From the sequence record MF327009: DNA of 64,000 bases; one strand, written 5' to 3'. The notes beneath the pieces are model-generated. The model worked only from the letters and a program-made list of their open reading frames with translations. It was not told the DNA's origin and did not search any database. Position 1 is the stretch's first letter. Every line of letters begins with the position of its first letter. Of the stretch, positions 9,717 to 55,700 are shown in pieces. Origin of the DNA: Shigella phage Sf25. The position numbers and the translations under genes are program-made.

Positions 9717-10163
9717 TTATAGATTAAATCCTTCAAAATCAAGAGTATAGATAGTATATGTTGAATACTTTTTGTACTCATATCTATCTGCAATTCTAAA
9801 TACACTTCCAGCTGGTATCATTACTTCTTGTTCATCTGAAACTAATTCCATATTACGATAACGATGACTATCCGGAAACTTAAAGTTTGGATTGTATTCT
9901 TTACAGCGTAGAGCTTTTATAGCATACTCCTGGAAATTGAATACCATAGGAGCTTTGAATTCAAAAATAACTTGTGTGTTATACTCTAAAATTTCATTTA
10001 ACCAAGTATGGTCATCTGGTTTATTAGTAATACAATGAATTAAAAGTTCAATTTCAGATAAATTAAACCCTTCAGAAAGTAATTCTTCACGAATAGAAGC
10101 ACGCACCGATGCATCCATTGATTTTATTTTAAAATCTTTTAGTTGCATTACTGAGTATTTCAT
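9717..10163 (-). CDS. ModA-like protein, short (148 aa), ADP-ribosyltransferase-like C-terminal motif only
   Basis: SDEQEVMIPAG resembles the ExE region of the adjacent ModB-like ORF (REQEWMIPIG); R and STS motifs not found. Confidence 0.45.
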   Translation of the reverse strand: MKYSVMQLKDFKIKSMDASVRASIREELLSEGFNLSEIELLIHCITNKPDDHTWLNEILEYNTQVIFEFKAPMVFNFQEYAIKALRCKEYNPNFKFPDSHRYRNMELVSDEQEVMIPAGSVFRIADRYEYKKYSTYTIYTLDFEGFNL

Positions 10164-10810: not shown

Positions 10811-11226
10811 TCATATCATCGTTAGAAAGGAAAGTAAACAACTTTTTGAATTATTTTGCCCAGGGAGCCCAAGGCGGAGGGTCAAGATGGTATGAAGCTA
10901 GTTCTTCTAGAAGAGCATCTGGGGCTTCAATTCCATAATTCTGTAATACTATACGGTACTCTTTCTTATAATCACTAGAATCATTCTGGTTATTCGTAGA
11001 ATGATTATCTTCTAACATTCATATCATCGTTAGAAAGGAAAGTAAACAACTTTTTGAATTATTTTGCCCAGGGAGCCCAAGGCGGAGGGTCAAGATGGTA
11101 TGAAGCTAGTTCTTCTAGAAGAGCATCTGGGGCTTCAATTCCATAATTCTGTAATACTATACGGTACTCTTTCTTATAATCACTAGAATCATTCTGGTTA
11201 TTCGTAGAATGATTATCTTCTAACAT
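10811..11226. repeat. exact tandem duplication, 2 x 208 bp
   Basis: Unit tcatatcatcgttagaaagg...gattatcttctaacat occurs twice head-to-tail with no mismatch; covers codons 6-60 and 3' flank of the small ORF 11059..11241. Confidence 0.85.
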
Positions 11227-13530: not shown

Positions 13531-14308
13531 TTAATAGCCTCGATCTTGACGAGCGAAGTTTTCAGCATTTTTCAGATAATAAAGTTTAAAGATTTCCTCA
13601 GCTGACATTCCAAGAGCAATGAATTTATTCATGAAAAAGTGAAATTGGTCAATCAGTTCAAATTTAATTTCAAGCTGATCTTCAGGAGATAAGTCTTGAA
13701 TTTTCTTGGATTGCATTTCAGAATAACGTTTCTTCCAAGGTTTCCATACAGCAGAAGCTTCTTTTTCACCATTACTCATACCACCAAGAGAAGTATATAG
13801 CTCGCGAGTTTCATCTGCGATATAATCGTCTTGGTTTCGCAACCAAGCAAGAACTTCTCCTGCAGTTTCAAGTGAATCAGGATGACGATTTGTTTCTGGT
13901 TTATCATTAGCCAAACGAATCTGTAAATGCCGCTGCATGTCAAATTTTCTTGGATTGCATTTCAGAATAACGTTTCTTCCAAGGTTTCCATACAGCAGAA
14001 GCTTCTTTTTCACCATTACTCATACCACCAAGAGAAGTATATAGCTCGCGAGTTTCATCTGCGATATAATCGTCTTGGTTTCGCAACCAAGCAAGAACTT
14101 CTCCTGCAGTTTCAAGTGAATCAGGATGACGATTTGTTTCTGGTTTATCATTAGCCAAACGAATCTGTAAATGCCGCTGCATGTCAAGCATAACCTGCAA
14201 TGGGTCAATACTGTGCATAATATACTCAGCATATGCACGATTTGCTTTATCAACACCTTCGATCAAATGAGCACATTCATTAAAGTGAGCCATTATTTTT
14301 CCTTTCAA
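13531..14308 (-). pseudogene. 56: dCTP pyrophosphatase gene 56 (MazG-like) disrupted by a 244-bp tandem duplication
   Basis: Two overlapping ORFs (13940..14308 and 13531..14016) share an identical 81-aa block; removing one repeat unit restores one ORF of about 171 aa at the gene 56 position between soc and dam. Confidence 0.7.
13699..14186. repeat. exact tandem duplication, 2 x 244 bp, inside gene 56
   Basis: Head-to-tail identical copies; unit length not a multiple of 3. Confidence 0.85.
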
Positions 14309-21610: not shown

Positions 21611-21687
21611 TCATTTTTTCCATAGGCATCATTATATTTTCCTCACTGGTTAAAGATAGAGTAATTATAACACAATAAATTTAGGCA

Positions 21688-22536
21688 TTAATCAACTGCT
21701 ATTGGATGAATAGCATTAAACTTATGAAATGCTTCTGATTTTTCTTTACGTGAAACGCACATGCGAAGAACCTTTAATGGTTCGTCTTCTTCACCCAACG
21801 ATTTTCGTTTTTCAATATTAGAAGTTTTCCAACGAGCTTGCTCTGGAAACTCTCTATTGATTTGCTCAAGCGCTCTATTATGTTTAGAATTACTACGAAT
21901 TGAACTGCACCCGCCAGGAGCTTGTGCTTTTCCAGATACAACCAGATATTTGAACAAGGCCAAATGCGGATAACCTTGATTAATTAAATTGAGAAATGCA
22001 TACATATCTTCGCACAAATCAATTTTTCCATACCCAATTTGTTCTGTCGTAAGTTTTCCAAGGTCATACCATGTATTCGTGAATCCATATGAATTTTCAC
22101 GATAATTACCCCAAGATGAAGTAATTTTAAAAATTGGTAGGCGAGCATGACCATGATAATACCCGCAATCCATGGCATCCTCAACGTATTGAATCAATTC
22201 ATAGAACTGTTCACGGGTTAATTGATTGACTTTATCTACACAACGACGGTCATCTCTTTTTCGCATTGAACTCATACGAATAGTAGTATCATCGTCAATC
22301 ATCCAGATTCGTTGACCTGCATACATATCAGTAATTGCTTTACGAGTACCGGCAATTCCGTTTACATCATCAGGAATAGTTATAATTTTAGCTCTAGACC
22401 CATAAGCGTCATAATAAGCTTTTTCTTCATGTTCACGCACTACAATATGGGGTTCATAATCAGTCGGAAACATATCAAGGGCAGAAACTGCCCCGACACG
22501 CTGATAACTTGGAATTACGAATTGAATCATTTCCAC
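21688..22536 (-). CDS. GT-A type glycosyltransferase at the beta-gt locus (282 aa)
   Basis: IWMIDDDT motif typical of GT-A folds; replaces the 351-aa T4 beta-gt between uvsX and 42, consistent with T2/T6-type glucosylation. Confidence 0.55.
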   Translation of the reverse strand: MEMIQFVIPSYQRVGAVSALDMFPTDYEPHIVVREHEEKAYYDAYGSRAKIITIPDDVNGIAGTRKAITDMYAGQRIWMIDDDTTIRMSSMRKRDDRRCVDKVNQLTREQFYELIQYVEDAMDCGYYHGHARLPIFKITSSWGNYRENSYGFTNTWYDLGKLTTEQIGYGKIDLCEDMYAFLNLINQGYPHLALFKYLVVSGKAQAPGGCSSIRSNSKHNRALEQINREFPEQARWKTSNIEKRKSLGEEDEPLKVLRMCVSRKEKSEAFHKFNAIHPIAVD

Positions 22537-23381
22537 TCACCGTTATAATCTTTTTTCACAATATGAGTTTCGCCAGTATTCCACCAATGATCAACCAAGT
22601 AAAAATGACGAGAATATACATGAAGACTTCCAACATTCCATATAATAGAACCTGCTTTATACTGACGAGTTGAATCGCCGGCATTCAAATCAGATACTAA
22701 TTTATCTAATACGTATTTTTGCCATGCATAATCATTACGGAATCCGAAGACCACGTCATTTGAGCGCATGCTTACTACTGCATTGACTTTCTTATCACGA
22801 ATCAGGTACTGTACTGTATTAGTACACATGAAATCTGACATACCATCTTTATTGTAGTCAAATTGCATGGATGGACGAGTCATGCTTACTACTGCATTGA
22901 CTTTCTTATCACGAATCAGGTACTGTACTGTATTAGTACACATGAAATCTGACATACCATCTTTATTGTAGTCAAATTGCATGGATGGACGAGTATAAAT
23001 CATGATACCACGTCGAGAATCAGGATTTTGACCAAGTTCAGCTAAACACATATCATACTGGGCATAGTTATCTTCTGACCAAATAGCCCAACCATAATTC
23101 GAGTTAATTTCGCCTTTAGAAGATGCTACCTGCTGCCAAATCTTTGGTGTTTCGCCTGGAATATCTTTGACAAACAGACTTTGAGACTTGTACCATTCAA
23201 GTTCACGCTGAATGTATTCATCATTAAGAGCGCCAAAAATAAAGGGTTCATCTGCTACAAATGATGCGCCAATAATTTCAATAGTTTTAACACCGGTTTT
23301 ATCAACTACGAAATCTTTTTCTTTTAATGCAAGCCCCAAATGAAGACGGATTTCTTCAACTGTCATAAAGTCACTAATCAT
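22527..23381 (-). CDS. 42: dCMP hydroxymethylase gp42 carrying an in-frame 38-aa tandem duplication (284 aa)
   Basis: Thymidylate-synthase-like fold; peptide VNAVVSMTRPSMQFDYNKDGMSDFMCTNTVQYLIRDKK occurs twice. Confidence 0.85.
   Translation of the reverse strand: MISDFMTVEEIRLHLGLALKEKDFVVDKTGVKTIEIIGASFVADEPFIFGALNDEYIQRELEWYKSQSLFVKDIPGETPKIWQQVASSKGEINSNYGWAIWSEDNYAQYDMCLAELGQNPDSRRGIMIYTRPSMQFDYNKDGMSDFMCTNTVQYLIRDKKVNAVVSMTRPSMQFDYNKDGMSDFMCTNTVQYLIRDKKVNAVVSMRSNDVVFGFRNDYAWQKYVLDKLVSDLNAGDSTRQYKAGSIIWNVGSLHVYSRHFYLVDHWWNTGETHIVKKDYNGEWK
22767..22994. repeat. exact tandem duplication, 2 x 114 bp, inside gene 42
   Basis: Identical head-to-tail copies, in frame. Confidence 0.85.
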
Positions 23382-23534
23382 TTAAACCTCAATTGATACA
23401 TTCATATTTAACTTGTAACAGTAATAAGCTCCAACCTAAAATAATAGTCGGAATCATAAGAGGAACCGTTACACTATAGTATATACTTATTATAATCATC
23501 AAGATTAAAAGCAACACTGTTATAATTTTGCTTT

Positions 23535-23786
23535 TCATTCTTTCTCTCTGATGATAATTACCTGATTTGGCTGTGCAGACTTTTTAGTTTCACCAGCAAT
23601 TGACCAAATAAATGTAATAAACCAACCAATAATTGACCAGTTAAACAGTAAAGATGTGAAAAAGATTCCTACTGTCGATTTTGACCCACGCATCAAGGCG
23701 ATAAACCATGGAAGCATGTATATAATAATAGCCAACACACCTGAAACTAAAACCATAAAAATTGAACCTGCTACTAAAGTTTCCAT
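23535..23786 (-). CDS. imm: Imm superinfection-immunity membrane protein (83 aa)
   Basis: Two TM helices; size and position upstream of gene 42 as in T4. Confidence 0.7.
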   Translation of the reverse strand: METLVAGSIFMVLVSGVLAIIIYMLPWFIALMRGSKSTVGIFFTSLLFNWSIIGWFITFIWSIAGETKKSAQPNQVIIIREKE

Positions 23787-23793
23787 GTTTTCC

Positions 23794-24174
23794 TCACTTA
23801 GTCAAATTTTTTACGCATGAATTATAAGAATTCACTACATACTCCATCGGAGCATTTTTACCAGTACGCCATTGGTAATTATTAGCCCAATTAGCCCAAA
23901 GCTCGGCGCAGTAGTTTTCAATTTTTTCTTCGCGTGTAATTACATCAGAATTACGATATGCTTGAGCAGATTCATTTGGACGAATAGCTTCGTCAAAATT
24001 CGCCTGCATTTGTTCTACTGTTTGCTTTGGAGCTTCTTTATAACACTTGACATTAGGATTATAAAATTTGCTTGAACAGTTTACAATTTTTCCTACATCA
24101 GACTGATTTATTACCGGTCCTTGAGCTACACAACCAGTAAGACCTAATGCAATAACCAAAATAGCGATTTTCAT
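23794..24174 (-). CDS. secreted lipoprotein (imm.1 position)
   Basis: Signal peptide with lipobox LTGC. Confidence 0.5.
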   Translation of the reverse strand: MKIAILVIALGLTGCVAQGPVINQSDVGKIVNCSSKFYNPNVKCYKEAPKQTVEQMQANFDEAIRPNESAQAYRNSDVITREEKIENYCAELWANWANNYQWRTGKNAPMEYVVNSYNSCVKNLTK

Positions 24175-24184
24175 AATAATTTCC

Positions 24185-24433
24185 TCAAATGCAAGTAGTA
24201 ATTACTCCAGTAGTGCTTATGCAGGTATTACCCATTTGCACACCTAAAGATCCATTTGTATTCACATGAAGATTATCATCAATTTTAACTGATATTTTAC
24301 CATTAGTGTGAATAACGGTGCTAGATTCAATCACAGGTTGAGTATCATTTTCAACACTAACAAATGGAACTGCTGCTAATGCAACTAAACAAACTGCTAA
24401 GCATCCCATAACAATTTTCATTTTATTCTCCAA
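24185..24433 (-). CDS. small secreted protein
   Basis: N-terminal signal peptide (MKIVMGCLAVCLVALAAVPFVS). Confidence 0.4.
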   Translation of the reverse strand: MENKMKIVMGCLAVCLVALAAVPFVSVENDTQPVIESSTVIHTNGKISVKIDDNLHVNTNGSLGVQMGNTCISTTGVITTCI

Positions 24434-24565
24434 ATCCGTATTAGTTGATAGTTGTATAGTACCATGGAAGAACAGTCTTGTAAACAGTTTTGTGAAAATT
24501 TTTTAGGGAATTCTAAAGGTCCAGAATCATCTGTTTTTCATAAGTATAGATTTATATTACTTGTA

Positions 24566-24589
24566 TGAAAAAGGGACCCGGAGGTCCCT
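24566..24589 (-). terminator. intrinsic terminator after gene 43
   Basis: Minus-strand hairpin GGGACC-TCCG-GGTCCC followed by TTTTTC. Confidence 0.6.
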
Positions 24590-24601
24590 AGATTTATTCT
24601 A

Positions 24602-27445
24602 TCAGCCAAACAGGAAGTCTAACGAAGCTTTTTCTTCATAGTCCATACCAGCCGATTCACACATGCCTGCAAGCGGTTTAACAAACGATTTTTGGAACAA
24701 AGTTGAGTAGTCAATCCAAGACAGTACGTCAGAACGAATTTCTTTTGGAAGTTCTGTACCCGACGGCCAAGCAATGCATTTGTCACCAAATGGATTTCCT
24801 TCACGCAATGGAAGAACCATTACTTTATTTCCATCCAAAATTGGAGCTACACCTAAACCGCTAACAGCTCGACGATAAGTTAGCACACCACGAATATGGA
24901 ACGGACATTTAAATCCTGGCCAACCTTTATCATCATATTTCGCTATATCGTTCGCAGTTTTTACTTCAGCAATAACTTTATAGTCAAGTTGACGATATTC
25001 TTTCTCGAAGTTCTTGTAATATTCTTGGACAGACTCTTCACCTTCCTGAAGAATACGACGAATACTTTCTTCGAGAGCTTCTTGGACCGCTTTAGGCGTT
25101 GAACTCTGCTGAGTTTCCATACCCATGATTTTTAGATGCGGTTCAGCAAATCGCTTATCTTCCATATCATATACGTTCAGAGCATAACGCTTTTTCGCTT
25201 TCCAAAATCCGCCAACGCCCTTTGAACCAAGTGGAGGGCAAGAAATAGCTTCACGGTCCATATGCATCAGATGCTCGCGGTTATTCATATAATCACATAA
25301 CTCACGATATGCAACATCAATCATAGGTTCCATCTTTTTCTTACCGAACTGATTCATGAATTCAACTAAATCGTTCTGCTCTTTGAATCGGTCAAGACCA
25401 ACTTTTTCAATAACTTTATCTACACAAACATATACCGAATCAGTATCACCTGCTGCAATGAAATCTTCGCCATTAGTTCCGCATACTTTATTCAGATATT
25501 CATTAATTTTACGAGCAATCCACTGAATACCAACTTGGCCGAAAATTGTGATAGCAGTAGCATTTCGCAAATCATAGTAACGGAAATGAATATTACCAAG
25601 AGCACCATAAAGACTGTTAATAAGAATTTTACGGTTCAGCTGATTTGTGTTAGCAAGTGTAGCTGCTTTTTCACACTCTTCGATCAAACTATTAAGAACA
25701 GATTCGGTGTAATTCGATAGTTCATTTAAGAAATCATCACTGAACTTAACATATCGTTCAACTTCTGGTTTAGTTGAGCAAGACCCTGCGCCTTTCATAA
25801 TAATCTTTTTAATAGCTTCGGCATTCATTTCTTCAGCGAACATTTTCTTTTTCCAATCTTTACGCTGGAAAAATACTTTAGCGATTTCCTTTGGAATGAT
25901 ACCTTCTTGATGCTTATCATACATCCATCCATTCGGAGAACAAGAATATTCATCACTCGGTTTAGGAGCTGTTCCTGCGATATATTCATGAATTGGATGA
26001 ACTTTAAACTGACCACGAATAGTCTCAGGACTAATGTTAACCTGACGAATAATGCTCGGATACAGAGACGTCAAGTCAAAACTCATAATATATCGACGAG
26101 CAATTGGTTTAGGTTCAAACACAAATGCACCCGGAAAACTCTGTTTAACGTGCGAACCTTGTTGAGGAATAACCTTATGTTCACCTTTCAATGAGTTAAA
26201 AATAATAGCATCCCAAGTTTTAATAGGACTCATTACACCGGAAAAAGGCATTTTAGCGTAATAAGACATACTTAAAACTAGATCGATAAACCCGCGAATT
26301 TTATCAATTGCTTGAACTGATTCTACGTCAATGATGTTATAACTAATGTATCGTTGATGATTAGTCTCACGAAGTTTATTAATAGGACCGTCGTATGGTA
26401 ATTTACCTTTTTTGGTTTCATGTTGAGCAACTGATTCCAAAGAGAATGACGGCAAATTAGTAAAAGCGAATTTCTTGTACAAATCTAAATAATCAAGAAT
26501 AGATACGCCATCAATAGAATAAATTTCTTTGCTGCCGTACATATTTTGAATTAGTTTGGATTTTACCCGACCGATTGGAGAGAAACGTTTCATACTGCGT
26601 TCGCCTAGAATCATTTTAACACGATTCATGATATATGGAACGTCAAACCCCTCAATATTCCAACCGGTAAAAATAGCAGGTCGTTTCTGTTCCCAGAGAT
26701 TGATATATTCCATGAGCATATCACGCTCATTATCGAATGGCATATAAATTACTCGGTCAAGAATTTCTTGAGGAACTTCATCACCACCTTCACAGTCAAG
26801 CTTAGCAGCTAACTTTGCATCCCATTTTGATACTGAACCGTACATTGAATTCAAAAGGTCGAAAACATAAAAACGATCGTCAATTGAATCGTAATGAGTG
26901 ATAGCATCAATTTCATATTCAGCTTTCATTGGGTCAGGAAATTTATCACCAGTAACCTCAATGTCACAGTTAGCTACACGAACACCGTACATTGAATTCA
27001 AAAGGTCGAAAACATAAAAACGATCGTCAATTGAATCGTAATGAGTGATAGCATCAATTTCATATTCAGCTTTCATTGGGTCAGGAAATTTATCACCAGT
27101 AACCTCAATGTCACAGTTAGCTACACGAACAAATTTTCGGTCATAAACAATTTCTGAACCATATGTATCACTGATATAAGCGAGTTTAAAATCGTTCATA
27201 CCGAGAGCTTCGAGACCGATGTCTTCCATTCGCTTCATCCAATCTCGAGCATCTTTCATTGATGGAAATTTTTGAGGAGCGCAGTTTTTACCATAGATGT
27301 CTTTGTACTTTGACTCTTCCTTACAATGCCTAAACATAGTTGGAAGATATTCTACTTCACGAGTACGTTCCTTTCCATTTTCATCAATATAACGTTCAAC
27401 AATATTATTTCCGACTGTTTCAATAGAGATATAAAATTCTTTCAT
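24602..27445 (-). CDS. 43: DNA polymerase gp43 (family B) carrying an in-frame 49-aa tandem duplication (947 aa)
   Basis: Exo I (CDIEVTG), DTDS polymerase motif, KKRY; T4 gp43 is 898 aa; duplicated block RVANCDIEVTG...LLNSMYG. Confidence 0.95.
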   Translation of the reverse strand: MKEFYISIETVGNNIVERYIDENGKERTREVEYLPTMFRHCKEESKYKDIYGKNCAPQKFPSMKDARDWMKRMEDIGLEALGMNDFKLAYISDTYGSEIVYDRKFVRVANCDIEVTGDKFPDPMKAEYEIDAITHYDSIDDRFYVFDLLNSMYGVRVANCDIEVTGDKFPDPMKAEYEIDAITHYDSIDDRFYVFDLLNSMYGSVSKWDAKLAAKLDCEGGDEVPQEILDRVIYMPFDNERDMLMEYINLWEQKRPAIFTGWNIEGFDVPYIMNRVKMILGERSMKRFSPIGRVKSKLIQNMYGSKEIYSIDGVSILDYLDLYKKFAFTNLPSFSLESVAQHETKKGKLPYDGPINKLRETNHQRYISYNIIDVESVQAIDKIRGFIDLVLSMSYYAKMPFSGVMSPIKTWDAIIFNSLKGEHKVIPQQGSHVKQSFPGAFVFEPKPIARRYIMSFDLTSLYPSIIRQVNISPETIRGQFKVHPIHEYIAGTAPKPSDEYSCSPNGWMYDKHQEGIIPKEIAKVFFQRKDWKKKMFAEEMNAEAIKKIIMKGAGSCSTKPEVERYVKFSDDFLNELSNYTESVLNSLIEECEKAATLANTNQLNRKILINSLYGALGNIHFRYYDLRNATAITIFGQVGIQWIARKINEYLNKVCGTNGEDFIAAGDTDSVYVCVDKVIEKVGLDRFKEQNDLVEFMNQFGKKKMEPMIDVAYRELCDYMNNREHLMHMDREAISCPPLGSKGVGGFWKAKKRYALNVYDMEDKRFAEPHLKIMGMETQQSSTPKAVQEALEESIRRILQEGEESVQEYYKNFEKEYRQLDYKVIAEVKTANDIAKYDDKGWPGFKCPFHIRGVLTYRRAVSGLGVAPILDGNKVMVLPLREGNPFGDKCIAWPSGTELPKEIRSDVLSWIDYSTLFQKSFVKPLAGMCESAGMDYEEKASLDFLFG
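26837..27130. repeat. exact tandem duplication, 2 x 147 bp, inside gene 43
   Basis: Identical copies, in frame; includes the Exo I motif. Confidence 0.85.
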
Positions 27446-27502
27446 AGATATTCCTTAGTTTATAGCCCGAGTTATTAGGCTCTTGATATATTATACTCCA
27501 AA

Positions 27503-27520
27503 TAAGGGGCCGAAGCCCCT
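27503..27520 (-). promoter_or_regulatory. hairpin upstream of gene 43 start (terminator and/or translational operator)
   Basis: AGGGGC-TTCG-GCCCCT hairpin about 60 nt upstream of the gene 43 ATG. Confidence 0.4.
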
Positions 27521-27523
27521 TGC

Positions 27524-27787
27524 TTAAATTAGTACTATTTGTCGGTGAAAAATTGTCATTCCATCTGCATTAATTGACTTAACGACTGCAGTAAAGTGTT
27601 TTTGTTCTGGATGAATTAATTTTTGAAATTCTACCTGAAATTTTAGTTGAAGGTTTTCTGGTAAATCAAAAAGTGTTTCTGTTGCAGAAAGATTATATTT
27701 TTCTTTAAGAGACGTCATGTATTCTTGTGGAGTTATAGCAGTCATATTAATTACCAATCGTATATTTAGGAACGAGTTTCCATTCAT
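27524..27787 (-). CDS. small hypothetical protein between regA and 43
   Basis: ORF track; probable start at internal ATG just after regA stop. Confidence 0.3.
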   Translation of the reverse strand: MNGNSFLNIRLVINMTAITPQEYMTSLKEKYNLSATETLFDLPENLQLKFQVEFQKLIHPEQKHFTAVVKSINADGMTIFHRQIVLI

Positions 27788-28115
27788 GTTTTTGTTTAAA
27801 AGAAATAACTCGGAAGTTATTAGTTAAATCTTTCATAAAAGTTCTTTGACCAGGAACGATTTCAATCAATCCCCAATCTTCTAACAACCATGCAATCGAA
27901 TCACGACGAACTTCATCTTCTTCTGCCATTTCAACTTGACGACCATCCATACGAAGCATTTCTTTAAAATGAACGATATAGTATAGTCCTTTTTTCTGAA
28001 GAATATGACAGGACTGATACAGAACTTTATCTTTATTATTAGCAATTCCCATACGAGTCAAAGTTTCTTTTACTTTCAGAAAATCTTCAGGTTTTTTAAG
28101 AGTAATTTCAATCAT
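27747..28115 (-). CDS. regA: RegA translational repressor, 122 aa
   Basis: 122-aa ORF MIEITLKKPEDFLKVKETLTRMG... at conserved position upstream of 43. Confidence 0.8.
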   Translation of the reverse strand: MIEITLKKPEDFLKVKETLTRMGIANNKDKVLYQSCHILQKKGLYYIVHFKEMLRMDGRQVEMAEEDEVRRDSIAWLLEDWGLIEIVPGQRTFMKDLTNNFRVISFKQKHEWKLVPKYTIGN

Positions 28116-28540
28116 TTTACCATTCCAATGCTAGTTTTTTGAGTTGTTTCTGTTCTTTTACGTTCTTAGTCACTTCTTTCAAAAAATCATATCTTCGACC
28201 AGTTTTGCCCATTTACCATATCTTTTACCACGAGGAACTGCAGCCATCAGATAATTAAAATGAGCTTCATCACTTAAGCCTGATCCAATTAAATTCATAG
28301 CATATACAGCTGGCATGCACTCTGGAAATTGTGATAATGCATTTTCAACCATGAATTTTGAATAATCTTTTTGAGCAATAGAGCATTTAGTTTTATTATT
28401 AATAGCTCCAATTATTTCAAAAAATTCATTTTCAGCTTTTTCTTTAAAAGAATCAGCAGCAGATTGGACAGCTGTCCAATCTTTTGAATACCAAGCAACT
28501 TGATGCTCGTTTAATTGAATATCATCTTCAAATAAGCTCA
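28116..28540 (-). pseudogene. 62: clamp-loader small subunit gene 62, frameshifted/truncated
   Basis: ORF ends prematurely (KLVEDMIF-stop, about 120 aa); conserved C-terminal peptide [23 protein letters not shown] is in the +1 frame ending at the regA start; about 46 codons missing versus T4 gp62 (187 aa). Confidence 0.6.
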
Positions 28541-28542
28541 TA

Positions 28543-29517
28543 TCACTTCCACTGCATTTCACATGCTAATTGAATGAAAAGATAAGCTAAATGTAATTCA
28601 GTGTTAGCTGCAATACCATGATACTGATTATTTTCACCAACAATTTCGTACATACGAATAATACTTTGCGGAGTTACACGTGAATAGATTTCTTCGGCAA
28701 GTTTACCCACGAACCACGAATAATCAGCTGCATATTTTGGTGCTAAAGCTCTGAGTTGTTTAACATCTTTATTTTTGAGAGACTCAAGAACATCATCAAT
28801 AGCACCACGATCGTTAGTAACCAGTGATAAAATACCAGCATCCAAAACACCTTTAGATGAATAACTATCGAGCTCACCAATAGTTTTACGAAAATCAGGA
28901 AAATTCTTTTTAACCAAAGCTGCTACAACTTTCATATCAGCTATAGCAATTCCTTCATGCTTGCAGATTTCAGTCAATCGACGAATCATCTGCTTCATCA
29001 TTTCAATTTTATCTTCATCGGTCGGTTGACCGAATGTAATAACTCGGCAGCGTGACTGGAGAGGTTTAATAATACCATCAATATTGTTAGCAGTAATAAT
29101 AATACTACAGTTTGAACTATAAGCTTCCATAAAGGAACGAAGATGTCGCTGAGACTCTGCTAACCCTGAGCGGTCAAATTCATCAATAACGATTACTTTT
29201 TGACGACCATCAAATGAAGCGGCGCTGGCAAAATTAGTCAAAGGACCACGAACGAAATCAATTTTACAATCTGACCCATTCACAAACATCATATCAGCAT
29301 TTACATCATGACACAATGCTTTCGCTACAGTTGTTTTACCTGTTCCTGGAGAAGGAGAATGAAGAATAATATGTGGAATTTTACCTTTACTTGTAATAGA
29401 TTTAAAGGTTTCTTTATCAAAGGCGGGAAGAATACATTCATCGATAGTAGATGGACGATATTTCTGTTCAAGAATGTGTTCTTTTTCATTTACGGTAATC
29501 ATAATTTCCTCATACAA
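28543..29517 (-). CDS. 44: clamp-loader ATPase gp44 (AAA+)
   Basis: Walker A GTGKTT, Walker B DEFD, SRC motif. Confidence 0.9.
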
Positions 29518-29533
29518 GTTTTAGTGTAAATTA

Positions 29534-29550
29534 TAAAGGGCCGAAGCCCT
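29534..29550 (-). terminator. hairpin between genes 45 and 44
   Basis: AGGGC-TTCG-GCCCT hairpin in the 36-bp intergenic region. Confidence 0.45.
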
Positions 29551-29553
29551 CTA

Positions 29554-30240
29554 TTAAAAATCGTGGGTAGAATCAGCTTCAAGAGCTACTACATAATTCG
29601 CATGTTCACCTTCAAATTTAGCAGCGCCTTGTTTACCTTTTGCCCAAAGCAGAAGTTTATAATTTCCTGGTTGCATTTTCATATTTGCCATATTGATAAT
29701 GAAATTAAATGTATTTTCACCATCATAATCACCAAGAGTCAAAGAATATTTAACACGGGTAAGAGCAGAATCTTCTACTTTATTAAAACCGTTAATTACG
29801 ATTTTACCTTCTTTTACCGTGATAGCAATTGTATCAATTTGCAGACCACGAGATACACGCAACAGCTGTTGAAGGTCTTCAGCTTTAATTTCAGTAACAA
29901 CAGATGCTACCGGGAATGGAATTGGTTTATTAGGAGCAACTACTGTACTCGGATCGGCTGCTGGCCAAAAAATTGTTGAACGAGCATCAGCAATTTTAAT
30001 ATTTCCATCTTCTGACTGGGAAATTTCTGCATCATCATTAACTAGAGACAGAATACCGAGAAAACCGTTCAAATCGTAAATTGCTACATCAAAATCAATA
30101 ACGTCAGAAATATTTGCTTCCGCATAAGTTGTACCATTAACTGCGCGAGTCATAATAAATTGACCGGATTTAAGCATAATACCGGAGTTAATAGTAGCGA
30201 AATTTTTAAGCAGAGCAGTAGTATCTTTAGACAGTTTCAT
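29554..30240 (-). CDS. 45: sliding clamp gp45, 228 aa
   Basis: Exact T4 gp45 length; position upstream of 44. Confidence 0.85.
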   Translation of the reverse strand: MKLSKDTTALLKNFATINSGIMLKSGQFIMTRAVNGTTYAEANISDVIDFDVAIYDLNGFLGILSLVNDDAEISQSEDGNIKIADARSTIFWPAADPSTVVAPNKPIPFPVASVVTEIKAEDLQQLLRVSRGLQIDTIAITVKEGKIVINGFNKVEDSALTRVKYSLTLGDYDGENTFNFIINMANMKMQPGNYKLLLWAKGKQGAAKFEGEHANYVVALEADSTHDF

Positions 30241-30295
30241 GTAATTTCCTTCAATTCAAATGAGATTTAATTTTATAACTAATTTAATAAAGCAA

Positions 30296-30685
30296 TTAAC
30301 GATTAAAATCAGCCGCAATTGTTTCAGCAACAATTTGAGCAGCAACAATTAGGCGTTCATCTGCATTACCGCAATATTCATCTTCTAAACGTTCACCGCA
30401 TGAAGTCATAATAAATTTAGCACCGGCGTTTAGGGATTCTGCAGTATGTTTGCGCATTAGTTCAATCCATTTATTACTTACTTCACGATCGATAGCTTCA
30501 TAATACGCATGACGAGCAGGTGCAGATTTAATTTTGTTCTGAATAACTTCCATTGCGTTATCAGAAAGAGACAAAACCCATGCGCGACGAATTTTATTTT
30601 GGTTTTGCGGATTTGAGTCAGAACGCACGTGTTTTGGCTGAATATCTTTTACATCAACAGTATAATTCACAGTAATTTTAGTCAT
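30296..30685 (-). CDS. rpbA: RNA polymerase-binding protein RpbA-position ORF (129 aa)
   Basis: Size and position downstream of 46-47 and upstream of 45. Confidence 0.6.
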
Positions 30686-30694
30686 AATACACCT

Positions 30695-30883
30695 TTAGTC
30701 ATAATAATCAGTAACAGTCCAAGCTTCATTTCTATTGGACATTATTTTTGTATATTCTGCTTTAAATGCATTCCTAAGCATAGATTCAGTAACTATATGC
30801 TCTTCATTAGAAAAATTATTTCTCAGAATATATCGTTTTATTTCAGGAAAAGTTAATAGATGCTGTCCAGTTGAATATTCCAT
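30695..30883 (-). CDS. hypothetical protein
   Basis: ORF track, 62 aa. Confidence 0.35.
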   Translation of the reverse strand: MEYSTGQHLLTFPEIKRYILRNNFSNEEHIVTESMLRNAFKAEYTKIMSNRNEAWTVTDYYD

Positions 30884-30938
30884 GTTTTTCCTCCATAGAG
30901 ATTATACTCTAATAAATTAAAGCATAATCTCTTATAAA

Positions 30939-39502: not shown

Positions 39503-39973
39503 TTAATCATGTTTCCACACCCCATCGGTATTTGACCAAAGTCGCTGATTATCTGATCCTCGCCACAGCTTTTTGGTCGGAAGATTTTTCTCATACTTCC
39601 CATCAATAATAACATCAACATATTTAAGCATTTCTAGTTGTTTAATATCTTCAAATTTATATCCTGTCCACAACCAAATGCTTTTATTGGGATAAAGATT
39701 TTTTACTGTTTGAACAATGCAATGAACAACATCTCGGTTATCAGGATAGAGAGGGTCTCCTCCAGTTATAGTTAATCCTTCTATATAATCATTATTCAAA
39801 CATTCAATTAATTGTTCTAGTGTTTCACCAGTGAATGGAACACCGTTTCTAGCGTTCCATGTTGATTTATTATAACACCCTTCGCATTTATGCAAACAAC
39901 CTGTAACGAAAAGAACGACCCTGCAACCAGGGCCATTCACAAAATCACAAGGATAAAATCTATCATAATTCAT
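39503..39973 (-). CDS. nrdG: anaerobic ribonucleotide reductase activating protein NrdG (radical SAM), 156 aa
   Basis: CxxxCxxC cluster (CLHKCEGC); stop/start overlap with nrdD. Confidence 0.85.
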   Translation of the reverse strand: MNYDRFYPCDFVNGPGCRVVLFVTGCLHKCEGCYNKSTWNARNGVPFTGETLEQLIECLNNDYIEGLTITGGDPLYPDNRDVVHCIVQTVKNLYPNKSIWLWTGYKFEDIKQLEMLKYVDVIIDGKYEKNLPTKKLWRGSDNQRLWSNTDGVWKHD

Positions 39974-40227
39974 TGATGCTTAACCCTATGCATGATTTCT
40001 TTATTTTTACCGAGATTAAATCCGCGCTCGTTAGGATTTCCCAAATAACCAACACCCTTCGCATTTATGCAAACAACCTGTAACGAAAAGAACGACCCTG
40101 CAACCAGGGCCATTCACAAAATCACAAGGATAAAATCTATCATAATTCATTGATGCTTAACCCTATGCATGATTTCTTTATTTTTACCGAGATTAAATCC
40201 GCGCTCGTTAGGATTTCCCAAATAACC
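39874..40227. repeat. exact tandem duplication, 2 x 177 bp, at the nrdD/nrdG junction
   Basis: Identical copies; second copy carries an orphan duplicate of the nrdG start region and a duplicate nrdD 3' end. Confidence 0.8.
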
Positions 40228-45632: not shown

Positions 45633-46934
45633 TTACTTAATTAACTGTAAAGCTTGTTCAAGACGATCAAGACGATTAACGGATTCTTCCCAAATCTTTT
45701 TAGCACTTTCATATTCTTTTTCTGCTTTATTTTTAATTTCTAAAGCTTCTTTATAAGCTTTTTCTAGTGCAATAACTTCTGGACGAATTTCTATTGGCTC
45801 AGGAGAATCATCGAGCCAATCCATCAATTCTTCAAGTGTGGTTTCTTCTTTAGGAGCATTCACAATTTCTTCACATTTCTTCTGATGAATTTCTTTATCT
45901 GTTAGTGAATAAGCACATTTCACTTCACGAAGACTAATTACAATTTTATATCCTTCCCATCCGCATATATTCTTAAAAGGATATGTATGAATATTTTCTA
46001 CTGTTTCCATACAAAGTAATGCAGTCTCTAACTGACGAGTTATAGTGCTAGCAATTGAGAAAAATTTATTAATATTCTTTTGGTTAGCGTTTGGTGTAAA
46101 AAATCCATAATTCACAAAAATAGCTACTTTATTTTCATCAAGCTCATATTCTAGTGAATAAGCACATTTCACTTCACGAAGACTAATTACAATTTTATAT
46201 CCTTCCCATCCGCATATATTCTTAAAAGGATATGTATGAATATTTTCTACTGTTTCCATACAAAGTAATGCAGTCTCTAACTGACGAGTTATAGTGCTAG
46301 CAATTGAGAAAAATTTATTAATATTCTTTTGGTTAGCGTTTGGTGTAAAAAATCCATAATTCACAAAAATAGCTACTTTATTTTCATCAAGCTCATATTC
46401 TTTTACGATAATCATATCAGAAGCCAAAGGATGAATTTGACGATAATCGCCATAACATAATTTAGAAGCTGATTTTAGAATTTGTCCTTTGAAAAGTCTG
46501 AAATTACTAATCCAACGACGAGTAAAAATATTCTCAGGGTCTTCTTTATTATTAAGATGATAAGAATTAACATCACCGAACCAATTATATCCTACTACAT
46601 CTTTGGTTCGTTTAATTTCTTTCCCAAAATTACCAAGAATATCCCGATTAACCAAATATGAAAGAAGACGAGACTCTTTAAAGGTTTTCTTGATATTATC
46701 TTTATCTACACGGCTAGAAATTTTACGAATTTCATGAATAAATTTAGTAGAAGAAACAATACTTGCATCAACACTATTGAGCCATTGATTGATAATGGAA
46801 AGAACGATATTTTGACCAAACATCGGTATAGCTTTATCATCAATAACGCTATTGAATGATTTGATATATTCGTTACGAGTCATATTAATCTCCTCAGTAG
46901 AAAGTAAGAACATTATACCACATCCTTGTGGCAA
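45633..46934 (-). CDS. hypothetical protein with C-terminal coiled coil, carrying an in-frame 83-aa tandem duplication
   Basis: Block EYELDENKVAIFVNYGFF...REVKCAYSL repeated twice; shares FRLFKGQILKSASKL-like motif with next ORF. Confidence 0.5.
   Translation of the reverse strand: MPQGCGIMFLLSTEEINMTRNEYIKSFNSVIDDKAIPMFGQNIVLSIINQWLNSVDASIVSSTKFIHEIRKISSRVDKDNIKKTFKESRLLSYLVNRDILGNFGKEIKRTKDVVGYNWFGDVNSYHLNNKEDPENIFTRRWISNFRLFKGQILKSASKLCYGDYRQIHPLASDMIIVKEYELDENKVAIFVNYGFFTPNANQKNINKFFSIASTITRQLETALLCMETVENIHTYPFKNICGWEGYKIVISLREVKCAYSLEYELDENKVAIFVNYGFFTPNANQKNINKFFSIASTITRQLETALLCMETVENIHTYPFKNICGWEGYKIVISLREVKCAYSLTDKEIHQKKCEEIVNAPKEETTLEELMDWLDDSPEPIEIRPEVIALEKAYKEALEIKNKAEKEYESAKKIWEESVNRLDRLEQALQLIK
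45903..46400. repeat. exact tandem duplication, 2 x 249 bp
   Basis: Identical head-to-tail copies, in frame. Confidence 0.85.
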
Positions 46935-46941: not shown

Positions 46942-48215
46942 TAGTTCAGTGCATTTAGTGCATTGTTCAGTTTAGAACGTTGCTTCGTGAGATTTTTGAC
47001 TTTTTCTTGTGCTTTTTCTAGCATCTTTTCAGCTTCTAACACTTCATTGGTCGCTTTAACGAGTTCATCATCTACTGCCTTAAGGGACTTCTCAATCGCA
47101 TCCGCGTGCCATTTTTCAACAGGTTTAAGACTCGGATTTTCAATAGGAAGAAAATTCACTTTATTGAATTTCCATGCATCTTTATTACCTGAACTATACA
47201 TCCAAAATTTAGGATCGTTTGATGAGTAATTGGATAAATTTAAATTTAAGTTATCTTGCACTTCTTGCTTTTTCTCTTGCGTGACTTCGTCCTTTCTCAA
47301 AAAATCGTATTTAAATGAAACGATCATATCAAGTTCATATGTTGTTGTGTCTAATTTAAATCGTTCGAAATGCTGTGAAATCTTAGACTGAATAGGAAGA
47401 AAATTCACTTTATTGAATTTCCATGCATCTTTATTACCTGAACTATACATCCAAAATTTAGGATCGTTTGATGAGTAATTGGATAAATTTAAATTTAAGT
47501 TATCTTGCACTTCTTGCTTTTTCTCTTGCGTGACTTCGTCCTTTCTCAAAAAATCGTATTTAAATGAAACGATCATATCAAGTTCATATGTTGTTGTGTC
47601 TAATTTAAATCGTTCGAAATGCTGTGAAATCTTAGACTGAACAGCAGCAACAACATCCATATACTTAAATGCTTCTGTCAACTGTGATTTAAGACATTCG
47701 CAAATTGAAAGAGAATTTTTTGTATTAGGTTTAAAGCTAATTCGTGCAGTTCTATTATTTTCTTTTAATGGTCTTACTTCCATCTGAAGAGTATAACCAT
47801 CAAATTTCAGGTTCTTTAAGTTAATATCAGAACCTTTTAATCGACTCGCAGTTGATAAAATTTGCTTTAATTGTCTACGGAATAGAGCAATAAATCTCCA
47901 TTCAATACGATAATGATTTGGATTGAAAAATCCAGATGATAAATCGACCTTACTTTGACCAACGCCTTGAACAAATAGAGGATTTTTATAATCAATAGTT
48001 TTACAGAAATCGGTTAGCTGCTCACGAGCAGTCATTTGTGTAATATACCCCGCTTTACTAAAATGACGTAACCATTCACTGCTATTCATATATTTAAAGT
48101 GAATATCACGATTAACTTTATCAGGGTCTAAATTATTTTGGCACAAAAATGTCATAACATCACGAGTATAGCTGGCATTACGAATCATATCTTCAATTTG
48201 AGAACGAGTTTTCAT
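46941..48215 (-). CDS. hypothetical protein with C-terminal coiled coil, carrying an in-frame 83-aa tandem duplication
   Basis: Block QSKISQHFERFKLDTTTYEL...KVNFLPI repeated twice. Confidence 0.5.
   Translation of the reverse strand: MKTRSQIEDMIRNASYTRDVMTFLCQNNLDPDKVNRDIHFKYMNSSEWLRHFSKAGYITQMTAREQLTDFCKTIDYKNPLFVQGVGQSKVDLSSGFFNPNHYRIEWRFIALFRRQLKQILSTASRLKGSDINLKNLKFDGYTLQMEVRPLKENNRTARISFKPNTKNSLSICECLKSQLTEAFKYMDVVAAVQSKISQHFERFKLDTTTYELDMIVSFKYDFLRKDEVTQEKKQEVQDNLNLNLSNYSSNDPKFWMYSSGNKDAWKFNKVNFLPIQSKISQHFERFKLDTTTYELDMIVSFKYDFLRKDEVTQEKKQEVQDNLNLNLSNYSSNDPKFWMYSSGNKDAWKFNKVNFLPIENPSLKPVEKWHADAIEKSLKAVDDELVKATNEVLEAEKMLEKAQEKVKNLTKQRSKLNNALNALN
47142..47639. repeat. exact tandem duplication, 2 x 249 bp
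   Basis: Identical head-to-tail copies, in frame. Confidence 0.85.
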
Positions 48216-48223: not shown

Positions 48224-49381
48224 TTAAGATTTAAGTAAATCAACAATTTTAATTAACTTTTCACGCTCGGATTTAGCTTTACTACTCAGTCCAGATAGTC
48301 TGAAAATTTCATCATCATATTGTTGAATAGAAATATTCAGCTCTTCAATCTGTTTATTAAAATAATCAATTTGTTCAGAATGTTTTTCGTTACTACGAAC
48401 TGGTACAGGTTTTGTAGGCAATTTAGTTGAACTGGATTCATCCGGGCGATAAATTAAAATACAACTTGAACCAATAGGGCATTTTGCACCAGATGAATAT
48501 TCTAATGTTCCAGCTTCTTTTAAAACTTCAAAAGCTAAACAGAGATGATGCCCCATATTAACATAATCTGTAGAGTGAGCTCTGATCAGCTCTTCAATCT
48601 GTTTATTAAAATAATCAATTTGTTCAGAATGTTTTTCGTTACTACGAACTGGTACAGGTTTTGTAGGCAATTTAGTTGAACTGGATTCATCCGGGCGATA
48701 AATTAAAATACAACTTGAACCAATAGGGCATTTTGCACCAGATGAATATTCTAATGTTCCAGCTTCTTTTAAAACTTCAAAAGCTAAACAGAGATGATGC
48801 CCCATATTAACATAATCTGTAGAGTGAGCTCTGATGTAATAATCATCTCCACGAATACTAAATTTAAAGCATTTAAGGTCTTCTGTATTATTGGTCTTAA
48901 AAATCATTTGTTTATCTAGACCTTTAGCTAATCGAGCGCCTAATGCTAATAATCGTCGTTGATTTTCCCACAAATCCGCAATCATTTGATCGAATGATAA
49001 TTTCGGCATTAGTCGACCATAAAGGTCATATCCTTTATTATAATTGCGAAGGATTTCACTCGCATTAATACGAGACAACGCTCCAATTTTATTAAGGGCT
49101 TTCATGATGCGATTAGATAAACCCATTCCAGACCCGTTTGTTCGTTGTAAATGTTTATCTAATCCAAACCCAATATCAACTTTAAATTTATCTAAAATTT
49201 CAGCATGAACATCTCTGTCAATAACATTCAAATCCAAAGTTTGGTTAAATCTATGAAAAAATTTATCTGGCTCTCCACGACGAAGTACAGTCCATTCATT
49301 CAATTTTTTATTAACTAAAGATTTAATTACTGCATTGACATTATTAATTACTACTGACATATTTTCCTCACTCAATTTCAA
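48224..49381 (-). CDS. hypothetical protein with C-terminal coiled coil, carrying an in-frame 83-aa tandem duplication
   Basis: Block IRAHSTDYVNMGHHLCLAFEV...NKQIEEL repeated twice. Confidence 0.5.
   Translation of the reverse strand: MKLSEENMSVVINNVNAVIKSLVNKKLNEWTVLRRGEPDKFFHRFNQTLDLNVIDRDVHAEILDKFKVDIGFGLDKHLQRTNGSGMGLSNRIMKALNKIGALSRINASEILRNYNKGYDLYGRLMPKLSFDQMIADLWENQRRLLALGARLAKGLDKQMIFKTNNTEDLKCFKFSIRGDDYYIRAHSTDYVNMGHHLCLAFEVLKEAGTLEYSSGAKCPIGSSCILIYRPDESSSTKLPTKPVPVRSNEKHSEQIDYFNKQIEELIRAHSTDYVNMGHHLCLAFEVLKEAGTLEYSSGAKCPIGSSCILIYRPDESSSTKLPTKPVPVRSNEKHSEQIDYFNKQIEELNISIQQYDDEIFRLSGLSSKAKSEREKLIKIVDLLKS
48337..48834. repeat. exact tandem duplication, 2 x 249 bp
   Basis: Identical head-to-tail copies, in frame. 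Confidence 0.85.
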
Positions 49382-55376: not shown

Positions 55377-55700
55377 TTATCCGATAGTTGTATAGTACCA
55401 CAGAATGCTGTTAGATTGGTCTAGTATGTGATCAATCATTTTAATTGTGTCGGTAGGAAGTTTACTGGCATCTGGAATTGAAGGCGTGTATTTTCTACCA
55501 GAATACCCCAAATATTGCTCACCAAATTTATCAATCAAATCTGGCAACTCGGAGAAAATAAAATCGTATGCTTTGTGTCTAGCATAACTTTTAGTTTCAA
55601 AATGCGCAGAATGAAAATAAGCTTGTGCAGCCATTAATAAACCTAAGTATTCATCTGCCTTTGAAGGTTTTCCACTTTGTGAAAAGTCGCTGAATTTCAT
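55377..55700 (-). CDS. hypothetical protein
   Basis: ORF track. Confidence 0.4.

What the first reader, a model, noticed from the sequence alone, without database searches (positions are those of the whole stretch)
26837..27130. In-frame 147-bp perfect tandem duplication inside DNA polymerase gene 43, duplicating the Exo I motif
Gene 43 encodes 947 aa rather than the 898 aa of T4 gp43. The extra 49 aa are an exact repeat of RVANCDIEVTGDKFPDPMKAEYEIDAITHYDSIDDRFYVFDLLNSMYG, which contains the 3'-5' exonuclease Exo I carboxylates (DIE). The DNA copies are identical, with a few bp of junction microhomology.
Basis: seen in the sequence. Interest (0 to 1): 0.65.

Follow-up and report, generated by a model that had tools for sequence, protein, structure and literature searches.

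The report
Assembly-join duplication in T4-like polymerase gene
The perfect 147-bp duplication inside the DNA polymerase gene is really in the sequence, but it is one of eleven join-like scars (eight perfect duplications and three clean deletions, two of which break essential genes), so it is almost certainly an error in how the sequence was put together and not a property of the phage.

Summary
Window 26837-26983 is repeated exactly at 26984-27130, in frame, inside gene 43 (24602-27445, minus strand), giving 947 aa instead of 898. The repeated unit is T4 gp43 V106-G154, which includes the Exo I residues D112 and E114.

The interpretation does not hold. The same 64-kb window carries seven more perfect two-copy tandem duplications (114, 177, 208, 244 and 249 x3 bp) and three clean deletions (156, 139 and about 145 nt). 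The homologous 70 kb of T4 and of Sf24 contain none. Two of these events frameshift essential genes: 56 (dCTPase) and 62 (clamp loader). The written sequence therefore cannot be a viable phage genome.

None of the eleven junctions occurs in 50,697 phage records, and every relative examined is single-copy. Junction microhomology is 0-2 bp, which is chance level. Three duplications share the same maximum length of 249 bp, and two deletion joins lie exactly 249 nt from the last variant site. That is a k-mer or read-length signature. Sequence affinity also shifts at several joins, including the gene 43 join.

Best reading: overlapping or gapped contigs of a T4-like phage were abutted without trimming the overlaps. 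Not a real feature; low interest.

The parts
24602..27445 (-). Gene 43 (family B DNA polymerase) as written: 947 aa, i.e. the 898-aa T4-type gp43 plus a 49-aa internal repeat
   Evidence: ORF list and translation; Pfam DNA_pol_B_exo1 + DNA_pol_B; 1NOY alignment; collapsed protein differs from T4 gp43 by 2 aa
26837..26983 (.). Copy 1 of the 147-bp unit. Under the join model this is the 3' end of the left contig (22881-26983). It encodes the second (C-proximal) copy of V106-G154 on the minus strand
26984..27130 (.). Copy 2 of the 147-bp unit. Under the join model this is the 5' end of the right contig (26984-28190). The novel junction lies at 26983|26984
   Evidence: junction 40-mer absent from phages, IMG/VR, GTDB genomes and JGI metagenomes
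10811..11226 (.). Sibling scar: perfect 208-bp x2 duplication (3' part of modA.2 plus intergenic DNA); an intact gene copy remains
13699..14186 (.). Sibling scar: perfect 244-bp x2 duplication inside essential gene 56 (dCTPase); not a multiple of 3, so it frameshifts the gene (aa 1-117 in frame -1, aa 36-172 in frame -2)
22767..22994 (.). Sibling scar: perfect 114-bp x2 duplication inside gene 42 (dCMP hydroxymethylase), +38 aa in frame
39874..40227 (.). Sibling scar: perfect 177-bp x2 duplication across the end of nrdD and the start of nrdG
45903..46400 (.). Sibling scar: perfect 249-bp x2 duplication in nrdC.4 (+83 aa)
47142..47639 (.). Sibling scar: perfect 249-bp x2 duplication in nrdC.5 (+83 aa)
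48337..48834 (.). Sibling scar: perfect 249-bp x2 duplication in nrdC.6 (+83 aa); a variant base follows immediately after the unit
9990..9991 (.). Sibling scar: clean 156-nt deletion relative to T4, Sf24 and six further relatives (inside modA, 52 codons)
28190..28191 (.). Sibling scar: clean 139-nt deletion inside essential gene 62 (clamp loader). It removes aa 118-164 and shifts the frame. The last variant against Sf24 lies exactly 249 nt to the left
55403..55404 (.). Sibling scar: clean 145/146-nt deletion that removes the C-terminal 29 aa of rI.-1 and the spacer to mobD.5. The last variant against Sf24 lies exactly 249 nt to the left

Best explanation
The duplication is a scar from how the sequence was built, not a mutation of the phage. 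The window is a natural T4-like (Tequatrovirus) genome that was reconstructed from at least 12 separate pieces (contigs of about 1.0-11.9 kb). These were ordered along a reference and joined end to end without reconciling their ends. Where two neighbouring pieces overlapped, the shared stretch was written twice, giving a perfect two-copy tandem duplication whose length equals the overlap. Where they left a gap, the missing stretch appears as a clean deletion. The gene 43 event is the join between piece 22881-26983 and piece 26984-28190, which overlapped by 147 bp. That 147 is a multiple of 3, so that the ORF stays open, is coincidence. The recurring 249-bp maximum suggests a k-mer size or read length of about 249-250, and the affinity shifts at several joins suggest the pieces came from a sample with more than one closely related variant. 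Shown: the eleven scars, their absence from all relatives, the broken essential genes, the chance-level microhomology and the 249 regularity. Inferred: the specific pipeline (contig abutment, a large-k graph or 250-nt reads, a mixed sample).
For: (1) Eight perfect 2.0-copy tandem duplications in 64 kb, against zero in the homologous 70-72 kb of T4 and Sf24. (2) Three clean deletions of similar size against every relative. (3) Essential genes 56 and 62 are frameshifted by a 244-bp duplication and a 139-nt deletion, so the sequence as written cannot be one viable genome. (4) None of the 11 junctions exists in 50,697 phage records; the gene 43 junction is also absent from IMG/VR, 185,579 GTDB genomes and JGI metagenomes; the exact 947-aa protein is not on record; all full-length homologues among the best 120 are 829-920 aa. 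(5) The relatives fetched in detail (17 loci) are single-copy at every junction they cover (at least 5 per junction covered, except del55404 with T4 and Sf24 only), and their alignments break at identical window coordinates. (6) Microhomology at the 8 duplication junctions is 0,1,0,1,0,1,2,1 bp, against a chance expectation of about 0.4. (7) Length signature: three duplications are exactly 249 bp, the maximum seen (P about 1.6e-5 under uniform lengths); at two deletion joins the nearest left variant against Sf24 is exactly 249 nt away, and dup249c is followed at once by a variant. (8) The duplicated units are nearly identical to Sf24 (0.43% mismatch against 2.5% in the flanks, permutation P=0.015), and identity to Sf24 steps between about 99.7% and 95-98% from block to block. 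At the gene 43 join the left flank and unit are JK1-like and the right flank is FT-like (Fisher P=0.006). (9) The background is natural: 50 of 53 nt differences from T4 gene 43 are at third codon positions. (10) Duplicated overlapping contig ends that must be trimmed, and duplications made by scaffolders, are documented artefacts (PMC5513972; PMC10166144).
Against: No reads are available, so the artefact is inferred and not observed. Six of the eight duplication lengths are multiples of 3 (P=0.02, or 0.10 if 249 is counted once), which would also fit selection on real in-frame events. Overlaps below the 249 cap vary (114-244), so a single fixed-k graph does not explain them all without assuming extra coverage breaks. 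The variant-to-end distance (248 matching bases) is off by one from the 249-bp overlap. Not every identity step against Sf24 sits exactly on a join (for example dup114), and T-even phages are natural mosaics, so the affinity shifts are only supportive. The source record and its assembly method are unknown.
Confidence: 0.8

Rival explanations
1. The rearrangements were introduced computationally in some other way: deliberately simulated or planted structural variants, a faulty polishing or consensus step, or output of a generative sequence model that repeats and skips segments. The duplication would still not be biology.
For: The same core facts fit: eleven events of 114-249 bp, perfect copies, chance-level microhomology, broken essential genes and absence from every database. 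Strain-specific internal 40-mers of the window are also absent from IMG/VR and JGI metagenomes, so no public parent sequence was found.
Against: Random placement does not predict that the duplicated units fall in Sf24-identical islands (P=0.015). Nor does it predict that variants sit exactly 249 nt from two deletion joins, or that nearest-relative affinity shifts at the joins. Uniformly drawn lengths would not hit 249 three times.
Confidence: 0.13
2. The 147-bp duplication is a genuine in-frame tandem duplication in gene 43 of this phage. It would have arisen by replication slippage or unequal recombination, producing a 947-aa polymerase with two copies of the first strands of the exonuclease domain and two Exo I motifs, possibly with altered proofreading.
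For: It is in frame and keeps a full-length ORF with every other motif intact. The surrounding sequence is natural and under purifying selection. T4 is known to generate tandem duplications (background knowledge, not tested here).
Against: It is indistinguishable in kind from seven sibling duplications and three deletions, two of which are lethal as written. Junction microhomology is 1 bp. The junction is absent from 50,697 phage records and three other collections, and no homologue has this length. Sequence affinity changes at the join. Background knowledge: 147-bp perfect direct repeats would be removed quickly by T4's very active homologous recombination unless selected, and the insert duplicates core beta-strands of the exonuclease fold.
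Confidence: 0.04
3. The events are real but belong to a minority of defective or rearranged genomes in a mixed lysate, and an assembler stitched them into a consensus.
For: A mixed population is suggested by the blockwise affinity changes. Defective genomes can be propagated by complementation at high multiplicity of infection (background knowledge).
Against: Eleven independent rearrangements of 114-249 bp, three of them exactly 249 bp, with no microhomology, is not what replication or recombination errors produce. A consensus assembler would not prefer minority variants at eleven sites.
Confidence: 0.03

Closest known systems
Untrimmed contig-end overlaps (for example the k-length terminal repeat of circular de Bruijn-graph contigs, the duplicated overlapping ends of HGAP assemblies, or scaffolder-made duplications)
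   Same: Exactly two perfect copies in tandem, with length set by the overlap and bounded by a software parameter. They recur at many joins, are absent from relatives and pay no regard to gene integrity. They are documented as needing trimming (PMC5513972; PMC10166144).
   Different: Here the overlaps are internal to a linearised genome, not at its ends. They vary from 114 to 249 bp and are interleaved with gap-type deletions, which implies naive concatenation of many ordered contigs and not a single circularisation overlap.
T4 gp43 (family B replicative DNA polymerase; PDB 1NOY N-terminal fragment, full-length 9E5Y, RB69 homologue 1IG9)
   Same: With the duplication collapsed, the protein is 898 aa and differs from T4 gp43 at 2 residues. 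Exo I D112/E114 and both Pfam domains are present.
   Different: As written it carries a second copy of V106-G154 between G154 and S155. None of the 120 closest homologues has this: all full-length ones are 829-920 aa.
Genuine T4 tandem duplications (the classical rII-region duplications; background knowledge)
   Same: Head-to-tail direct repeats in a T-even genome.
   Different: The classical cases are kilobase-scale, arise at short homologies, are selected for and segregate rapidly. Here there are eleven small events with no microhomology, a common 249-bp ceiling and lethal frameshifts.

Membership tests
Assembly-join artefact (abutted contigs with untrimmed overlap) | Copies are exactly identical and there are exactly two | tested here: met
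   100% identity and 2.0 copies for all eight arrays
Assembly-join artefact (abutted contigs with untrimmed overlap) | Recurs at many places in the same sequence and is accompanied by gap-type deletions at other joins | tested here: met
   8 duplications plus 3 clean deletions in 64 kb; 0 in the homologous regions of T4 and Sf24
Assembly-join artefact (abutted contigs with untrimmed overlap) | Lengths bounded by a software parameter (k-mer size or read length) | tested here: met
   Three events are exactly 249 bp, the maximum; variants lie exactly 249 nt from two deletion joins
Assembly-join artefact (abutted contigs with untrimmed overlap) | Indifferent to gene function (breaks essential genes) | tested here: met
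   Frameshifts in genes 56 and 62
Assembly-join artefact (abutted contigs with untrimmed overlap) | Junctions absent from all independent genomes | tested here: met
   No match for any of the 11 junction 40-mers in 50,697 phage records; the 17 relative loci examined are single-copy at every junction they cover
Assembly-join artefact (abutted contigs with untrimmed overlap) | Sequence source or affinity changes at the joins | tested here: inconclusive
   Sharp at dup244 and significant at the gene 43 join (P=0.006), but offset at dup114; natural mosaicism could contribute
Assembly-join artefact (abutted contigs with untrimmed overlap) | No read spans both copies with unique flanks | not testable with these tools
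   Reads and the source record are not available
Genuine slippage or unequal-recombination tandem duplication | Short homology at the duplication end points above chance | tested here: not met
   1 bp at the gene 43 junction; 0-2 bp at all eight; chance expectation about 0.4
Genuine slippage or unequal-recombination tandem duplication | The genome carrying it is viable | tested here: not met
   The same sequence has frameshifts in essential genes 56 and 62. That these genes are essential is established T4 genetics (background knowledge)
Genuine slippage or unequal-recombination tandem duplication | Independent confirmation (other isolates, reads, PCR) | tested here: not met
   Absent from phages, IMG/VR, GTDB genomes, JGI metagenomes and the protein collection. 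Reads and PCR are not testable here
T4-type gp43 family B DNA polymerase | Exonuclease and polymerase domains with Exo I D-x-E | tested here: met
   PF03104 + PF00136; DIE at T4 positions 112-114, present twice
T4-type gp43 family B DNA polymerase | Canonical architecture and length (about 898 aa with a single exonuclease N-terminal strand set) | tested here: not met
   947 aa as written. It becomes 898 aa and 2 substitutions from T4 once the repeat is collapsed

The most novel reading that the evidence does not exclude
The 147-bp duplication is genuine. In that case a natural T4-like phage replicates with a polymerase whose exonuclease domain carries a 49-aa internal duplication (V106-G154) and so two Exo I motifs. 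That would be a tolerated partial-domain duplication in a textbook replicative polymerase, possibly changing proofreading and mutation rate, and maintained against T4's strong recombination.
Probability: 0.03. Interest if true: 0.55.

Novelty: not a real feature. Interest (0 to 1): 0.06.

Why it matters
As biology it does not matter: the polymerase underneath is an ordinary T4-type gp43, two substitutions from the T4 reference. It matters for data quality. This 64-kb stretch contains at least eleven join errors, which inflate five proteins (gp42, gp43, NrdC.4, NrdC.5, NrdC.6), truncate or shorten four (gp56, gp62, ModA, rI.-1) and create spurious partial gene copies. Any annotation, protein-family statistic or search for 'novel variants' based on this record would be misled. 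Other findings from the same window that rest on repeats, unusual protein lengths or pseudogenes should be read in that light.

Tried and rejected
1. I looked for the same duplication elsewhere. The junction 40-mer was searched against phages, IMG/VR (8), GTDB genomes (9) and JGI metagenomes (11), the exact protein was looked up (10), and the 5.8-billion-protein collection was searched for homologues (28). Nothing was found.

2. I tried to find the source strain or its original contigs. Strain-specific internal 40-mers had no hit. Exact-protein look-ups of the window's NrdD and Dda returned 12 related contigs, none more than about 98.4% identical to the window blocks. I could not show that contig ends coincide with the joins.

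3. I tested whether every duplicated unit is bounded by variant sites, as a strict de Bruijn-graph model predicts. This holds only partly, for dup249a, dup249c and dup244. Other units have the nearest Sf24 variant 30-140 nt away, so I do not claim one fixed-k graph.

4. I considered selection for in-frame events, since 6 of 8 lengths are divisible by 3. I rejected it: P is only 0.02, or 0.10 once the three 249s are treated as one bound, and the 244-bp duplication and 139-nt deletion frameshift essential genes.

5. I considered random simulated variants. This is less likely because of the triple 249, the 249-nt variant distances and the placement in Sf24-identical islands, but it is not excluded.

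6. I searched the literature for a precedent of tandem duplication in gene 43 and found none in the open-access library. The search on instability of T4 duplications gave nothing directly usable.

7. I did not run structure prediction of the duplicated polymerase, because it could not change the verdict.
Full report
OBSERVATION. Tandem Repeats Finder reports a single array in the region, 26837-27131, with period 147, 2.0 copies, 100% matches and no indels. An independent repeat search gives 26837-26983 = 26984-27130 at 100%. The array lies inside the minus-strand ORF 24602..27445, which encodes 947 aa. That protein aligns to the solved T4 gp43 N-terminal fragment 1NOY as residues 1-154 followed again by residues 107-380, and it carries the Pfam family B exonuclease and polymerase domains. 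The repeated peptide is 49 aa long and corresponds to T4 gp43 V106-G154, with the Exo I D-I-E at 112-114. There are two small corrections.

THE BACKGROUND IS AN ORDINARY T4-LIKE PHAGE. The window is a Tequatrovirus. Its closest record is Shigella phage Sf24, at 99.0% over window 20000-44000. With the duplication collapsed, the polymerase is 898 aa and differs from T4 gp43 at two residues. Of the 53 nucleotide differences from T4 gene 43, 50 are at third codon positions. The underlying sequence is therefore natural and under purifying selection.

THE DUPLICATION IS NOT UNIQUE TO GENE 43. A scan of the whole window finds eight perfect 2.0-copy tandem duplications:
- 10811-11226 (208 bp)
- 13699-14186 (244 bp)
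- 22767-22994 (114 bp)
- 26837-27130 (147 bp)
- 39874-40227 (177 bp)
- 45903-46400, 47142-47639 and 48337-48834 (249 bp each)

The homologous 72 kb of T4 and 70 kb of Sf24 contain none with a period of 50-600. Aligning the window to T4 and Sf24 also shows three clean deletions relative to both: 156 nt at 9990|9991, 139 nt at 28190|28191 and 145/146 nt at 55403|55404. The window has no ambiguous bases, so gaps were not marked.

CONSEQUENCES FOR GENES. tblastn of the reference proteins against the window gives the following.
- The 244-bp duplication splits essential gene 56 (dCTPase) between two frames: aa 1-117 in frame -1 and aa 36-172 in frame -2.
- The 139-nt deletion removes aa 118-164 of essential gene 62 (clamp-loader subunit) and shifts the frame.
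- ModA loses 52 aa, and rI.-1 loses its C-terminal 29 aa.
- gp42 gains 38 aa, gp43 gains 49 aa, and NrdC.4, NrdC.5 and NrdC.6 gain 83 aa each.

By established T4 genetics (background knowledge), genes 56 and 62 are indispensable, so the sequence as written cannot be one viable genome. The gene 43 event is of the same kind as events that are clearly wrong.

ABSENCE ELSEWHERE. A 40-mer centred on the gene 43 junction can match only a record that contains the junction, because megablast needs a 28-base exact word. It has no match in 50,697 phage records, IMG/VR, 185,579 GTDB species genomes or JGI metagenomes. A multiplexed query made of the other ten junction 40-mers also finds nothing in the phage collection. 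In the ordinary search, 540 records cover the region and every one of the 40 listed spans 799-802 bp where the window has 946. The exact 947-aa protein is not on record. Among the 120 best homologues, all full-length proteins are 829-920 aa, and the closest cluster (436 member sequences) is 898 aa. I fetched 17 relative loci in detail: T4, Sf24, JK1, FT, SHBML-50-1 and twelve contigs found through the window's NrdD and Dda. In all of them, the alignments break at exactly the same window coordinates, and the overlaps or gaps on the relative's side equal the duplication or deletion lengths.

SIGNATURES OF A COMPUTATIONAL ORIGIN.
1. Microhomology at the eight duplication junctions is 0,1,0,1,0,1,2,1 bp, against a chance expectation of about 0.4. 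There is no sign of slippage or recombination at short homologies.
2. Three duplications share exactly the same length, 249 bp, which is also the maximum. Under uniformly distributed lengths this has a probability of about 1.6e-5.
3. At two of the three deletion joins, the nearest variant against Sf24 on the left is exactly 249 nt from the join. The third 249-bp unit is followed immediately by a variant base. A fixed distance of this kind is what a k-mer size or a 250-nt read length imposes on contig ends. Biology has no reason to produce it.
4. The duplicated units are almost identical to Sf24 (7 mismatches in 1,637 nt, against 2.5% in the flanks; permutation P=0.015), but they are not unusually conserved against T4. 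Identity to Sf24 also steps from block to block, for example 96.3%, 99.78%, 97.25%, 98.4% and 99.72%.
5. At the gene 43 join itself, the last kilobase on the left plus the unit is JK1-like (9 mismatches against 25 to FT). The 400 nt on the right are FT-like (1 mismatch against 6 to JK1; Fisher P=0.006). The gene 43.1 variant just beyond is shared only with FT and SHBML-50-1.

Because T-even phages are natural mosaics, I treat points 4 and 5 as supportive and not decisive.

MECHANISM. The most economical account is as follows. A fragmented short-read assembly produced pieces of 1,028, 2,924, 8,938, 4,103, 1,207, 11,860, 6,101, 1,239, 1,195 and 6,818 nt between the joins. It probably came from a sample containing more than one close variant. 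The pieces were ordered on a reference and concatenated. Overlapping ends became perfect tandem duplications, and uncovered gaps became deletions. Duplicated overlapping ends that must be trimmed, and duplications created by scaffolding, are documented artefacts (PMC5513972; PMC10166144). The eleven scars and their properties are shown. The pipeline is inferred, and I could not recover the reads, the contigs or the source record: strain-specific 40-mers are absent from IMG/VR and JGI metagenomes.

RIVALS.
- Another computational origin (planted or simulated variants, faulty polishing, generated sequence) fits the core facts. It fits less well with the triple 249, the 249-nt variant distances and the placement in Sf24-identical islands. 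I give it about 0.13. It would not change the verdict that this is not biology.
- A genuine in-frame duplication in gene 43 is left at about 0.04. In its favour are the preserved ORF and the excess of lengths divisible by 3 (6 of 8, P=0.02, falling to 0.10 if the three 249s count once). Everything else counts against it.
- A minority population of defective genomes stitched into a consensus is given about 0.03.

COMPARISON WITH THE KNOWN, AND NOVELTY. The gene is a standard member of the T4 gp43 family B polymerases once the repeat is collapsed. The repeat itself belongs with untrimmed contig overlaps, not with genuine tandem duplications: the defining features of a genuine duplication that could be tested (end-point homology, a viable carrier genome, independent occurrence) were not met. 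No open-access paper reports a tandem duplication in gene 43. Verdict: not a real feature, and of very low biological interest. The practical value is a warning that this sequence holds at least eleven join errors, which affect nine protein-coding genes and leave spurious partial copies of three more (modA.2, nrdD, nrdG).

DECISIVE TEST. Either read mapping across 26983|26984, or PCR across 26750-27200. A 304-bp product would indicate an artefact and a 451-bp product a real duplication. The same checks should be run on genes 56 and 62.

Noticed in passing
window 10811-11226, 13699-14186, 22767-22994, 39874-40227, 45903-46400, 47142-47639, 48337-48834: Seven further perfect two-copy tandem duplications (208, 244, 114, 177, 249, 249, 249 bp), affecting modA.2, gene 56 (frameshift), gene 42, the nrdD/nrdG boundary and nrdC.4/.5/.6. 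All are absent from every relative examined.
   Followed up: yes
window 9990|9991, 28190|28191, 55403|55404: Three clean deletions relative to all relatives: 156 nt in modA, 139 nt in essential gene 62 (frameshift), and 145/146 nt removing the 3' end of rI.-1. At the last two, the nearest left variant against Sf24 is exactly 249 nt away.
   Followed up: yes
window 13943-22880, 28191-40050, 47391-48585 versus the remaining blocks: Identity to Shigella phage Sf24 alternates between about 99.7-99.8% in these blocks and 95-98% elsewhere, with several steps at or near the join scars. This may be a natural mosaic, a mixed-strain assembly, or both.
   Followed up: partly
all eight duplications and three deletions: Seven of the eleven event lengths are multiples of 3 (114, 147, 177, 249 x3, 156; P about 0.04, inflated by the three 249s). 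Probably coincidence, but not explained.
   Followed up: partly
window 3652-3733, 18096-18141, 24411-24504, 38723-38785, 50342-50435, 51781-51874, 54568-54613, 55359-55404: A dispersed 46-63-nt repeat family (core TAGTTGATAGTTGTATAGTACCA). Its reverse complement reads GTTTAC...TGGTACTATAC upstream of minus-strand genes, which resembles T4 early promoters. The resemblance is judged from memory and was not tested.
   Followed up: no
window 26-1846 (-), and 361/426 versus T4 2794-3910: The topoisomerase II large subunit is one uninterrupted 606-aa ORF, as in Sf24. The window lacks the T4 segment that holds the gene 60 translational-bypass region, 60.1 and mobA, which separates genes 60 and 39 in T4.
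   Followed up: partly
window 40147-41964 (-), junction near 41426/41429: nrdD is an uninterrupted 605-aa ORF. The ~1,035-nt T4 group I intron with I-TevII (T4 44815-45849) is absent, as it is in Sf24. Several T4 homing-endonuclease genes (segA, mobB, mobC, mobD) also fall in stretches of T4 that did not align to the window.
   Followed up: partly
window 27531-27746: The small gene between 43 and regA (ORF 27524-27787, 87 aa) is an allele shared with phages FT and SHBML-50-1. It does not align to JK1, Sf24 or T4, so this is a local cassette swap right next to the gene 43 join.
   Followed up: partly
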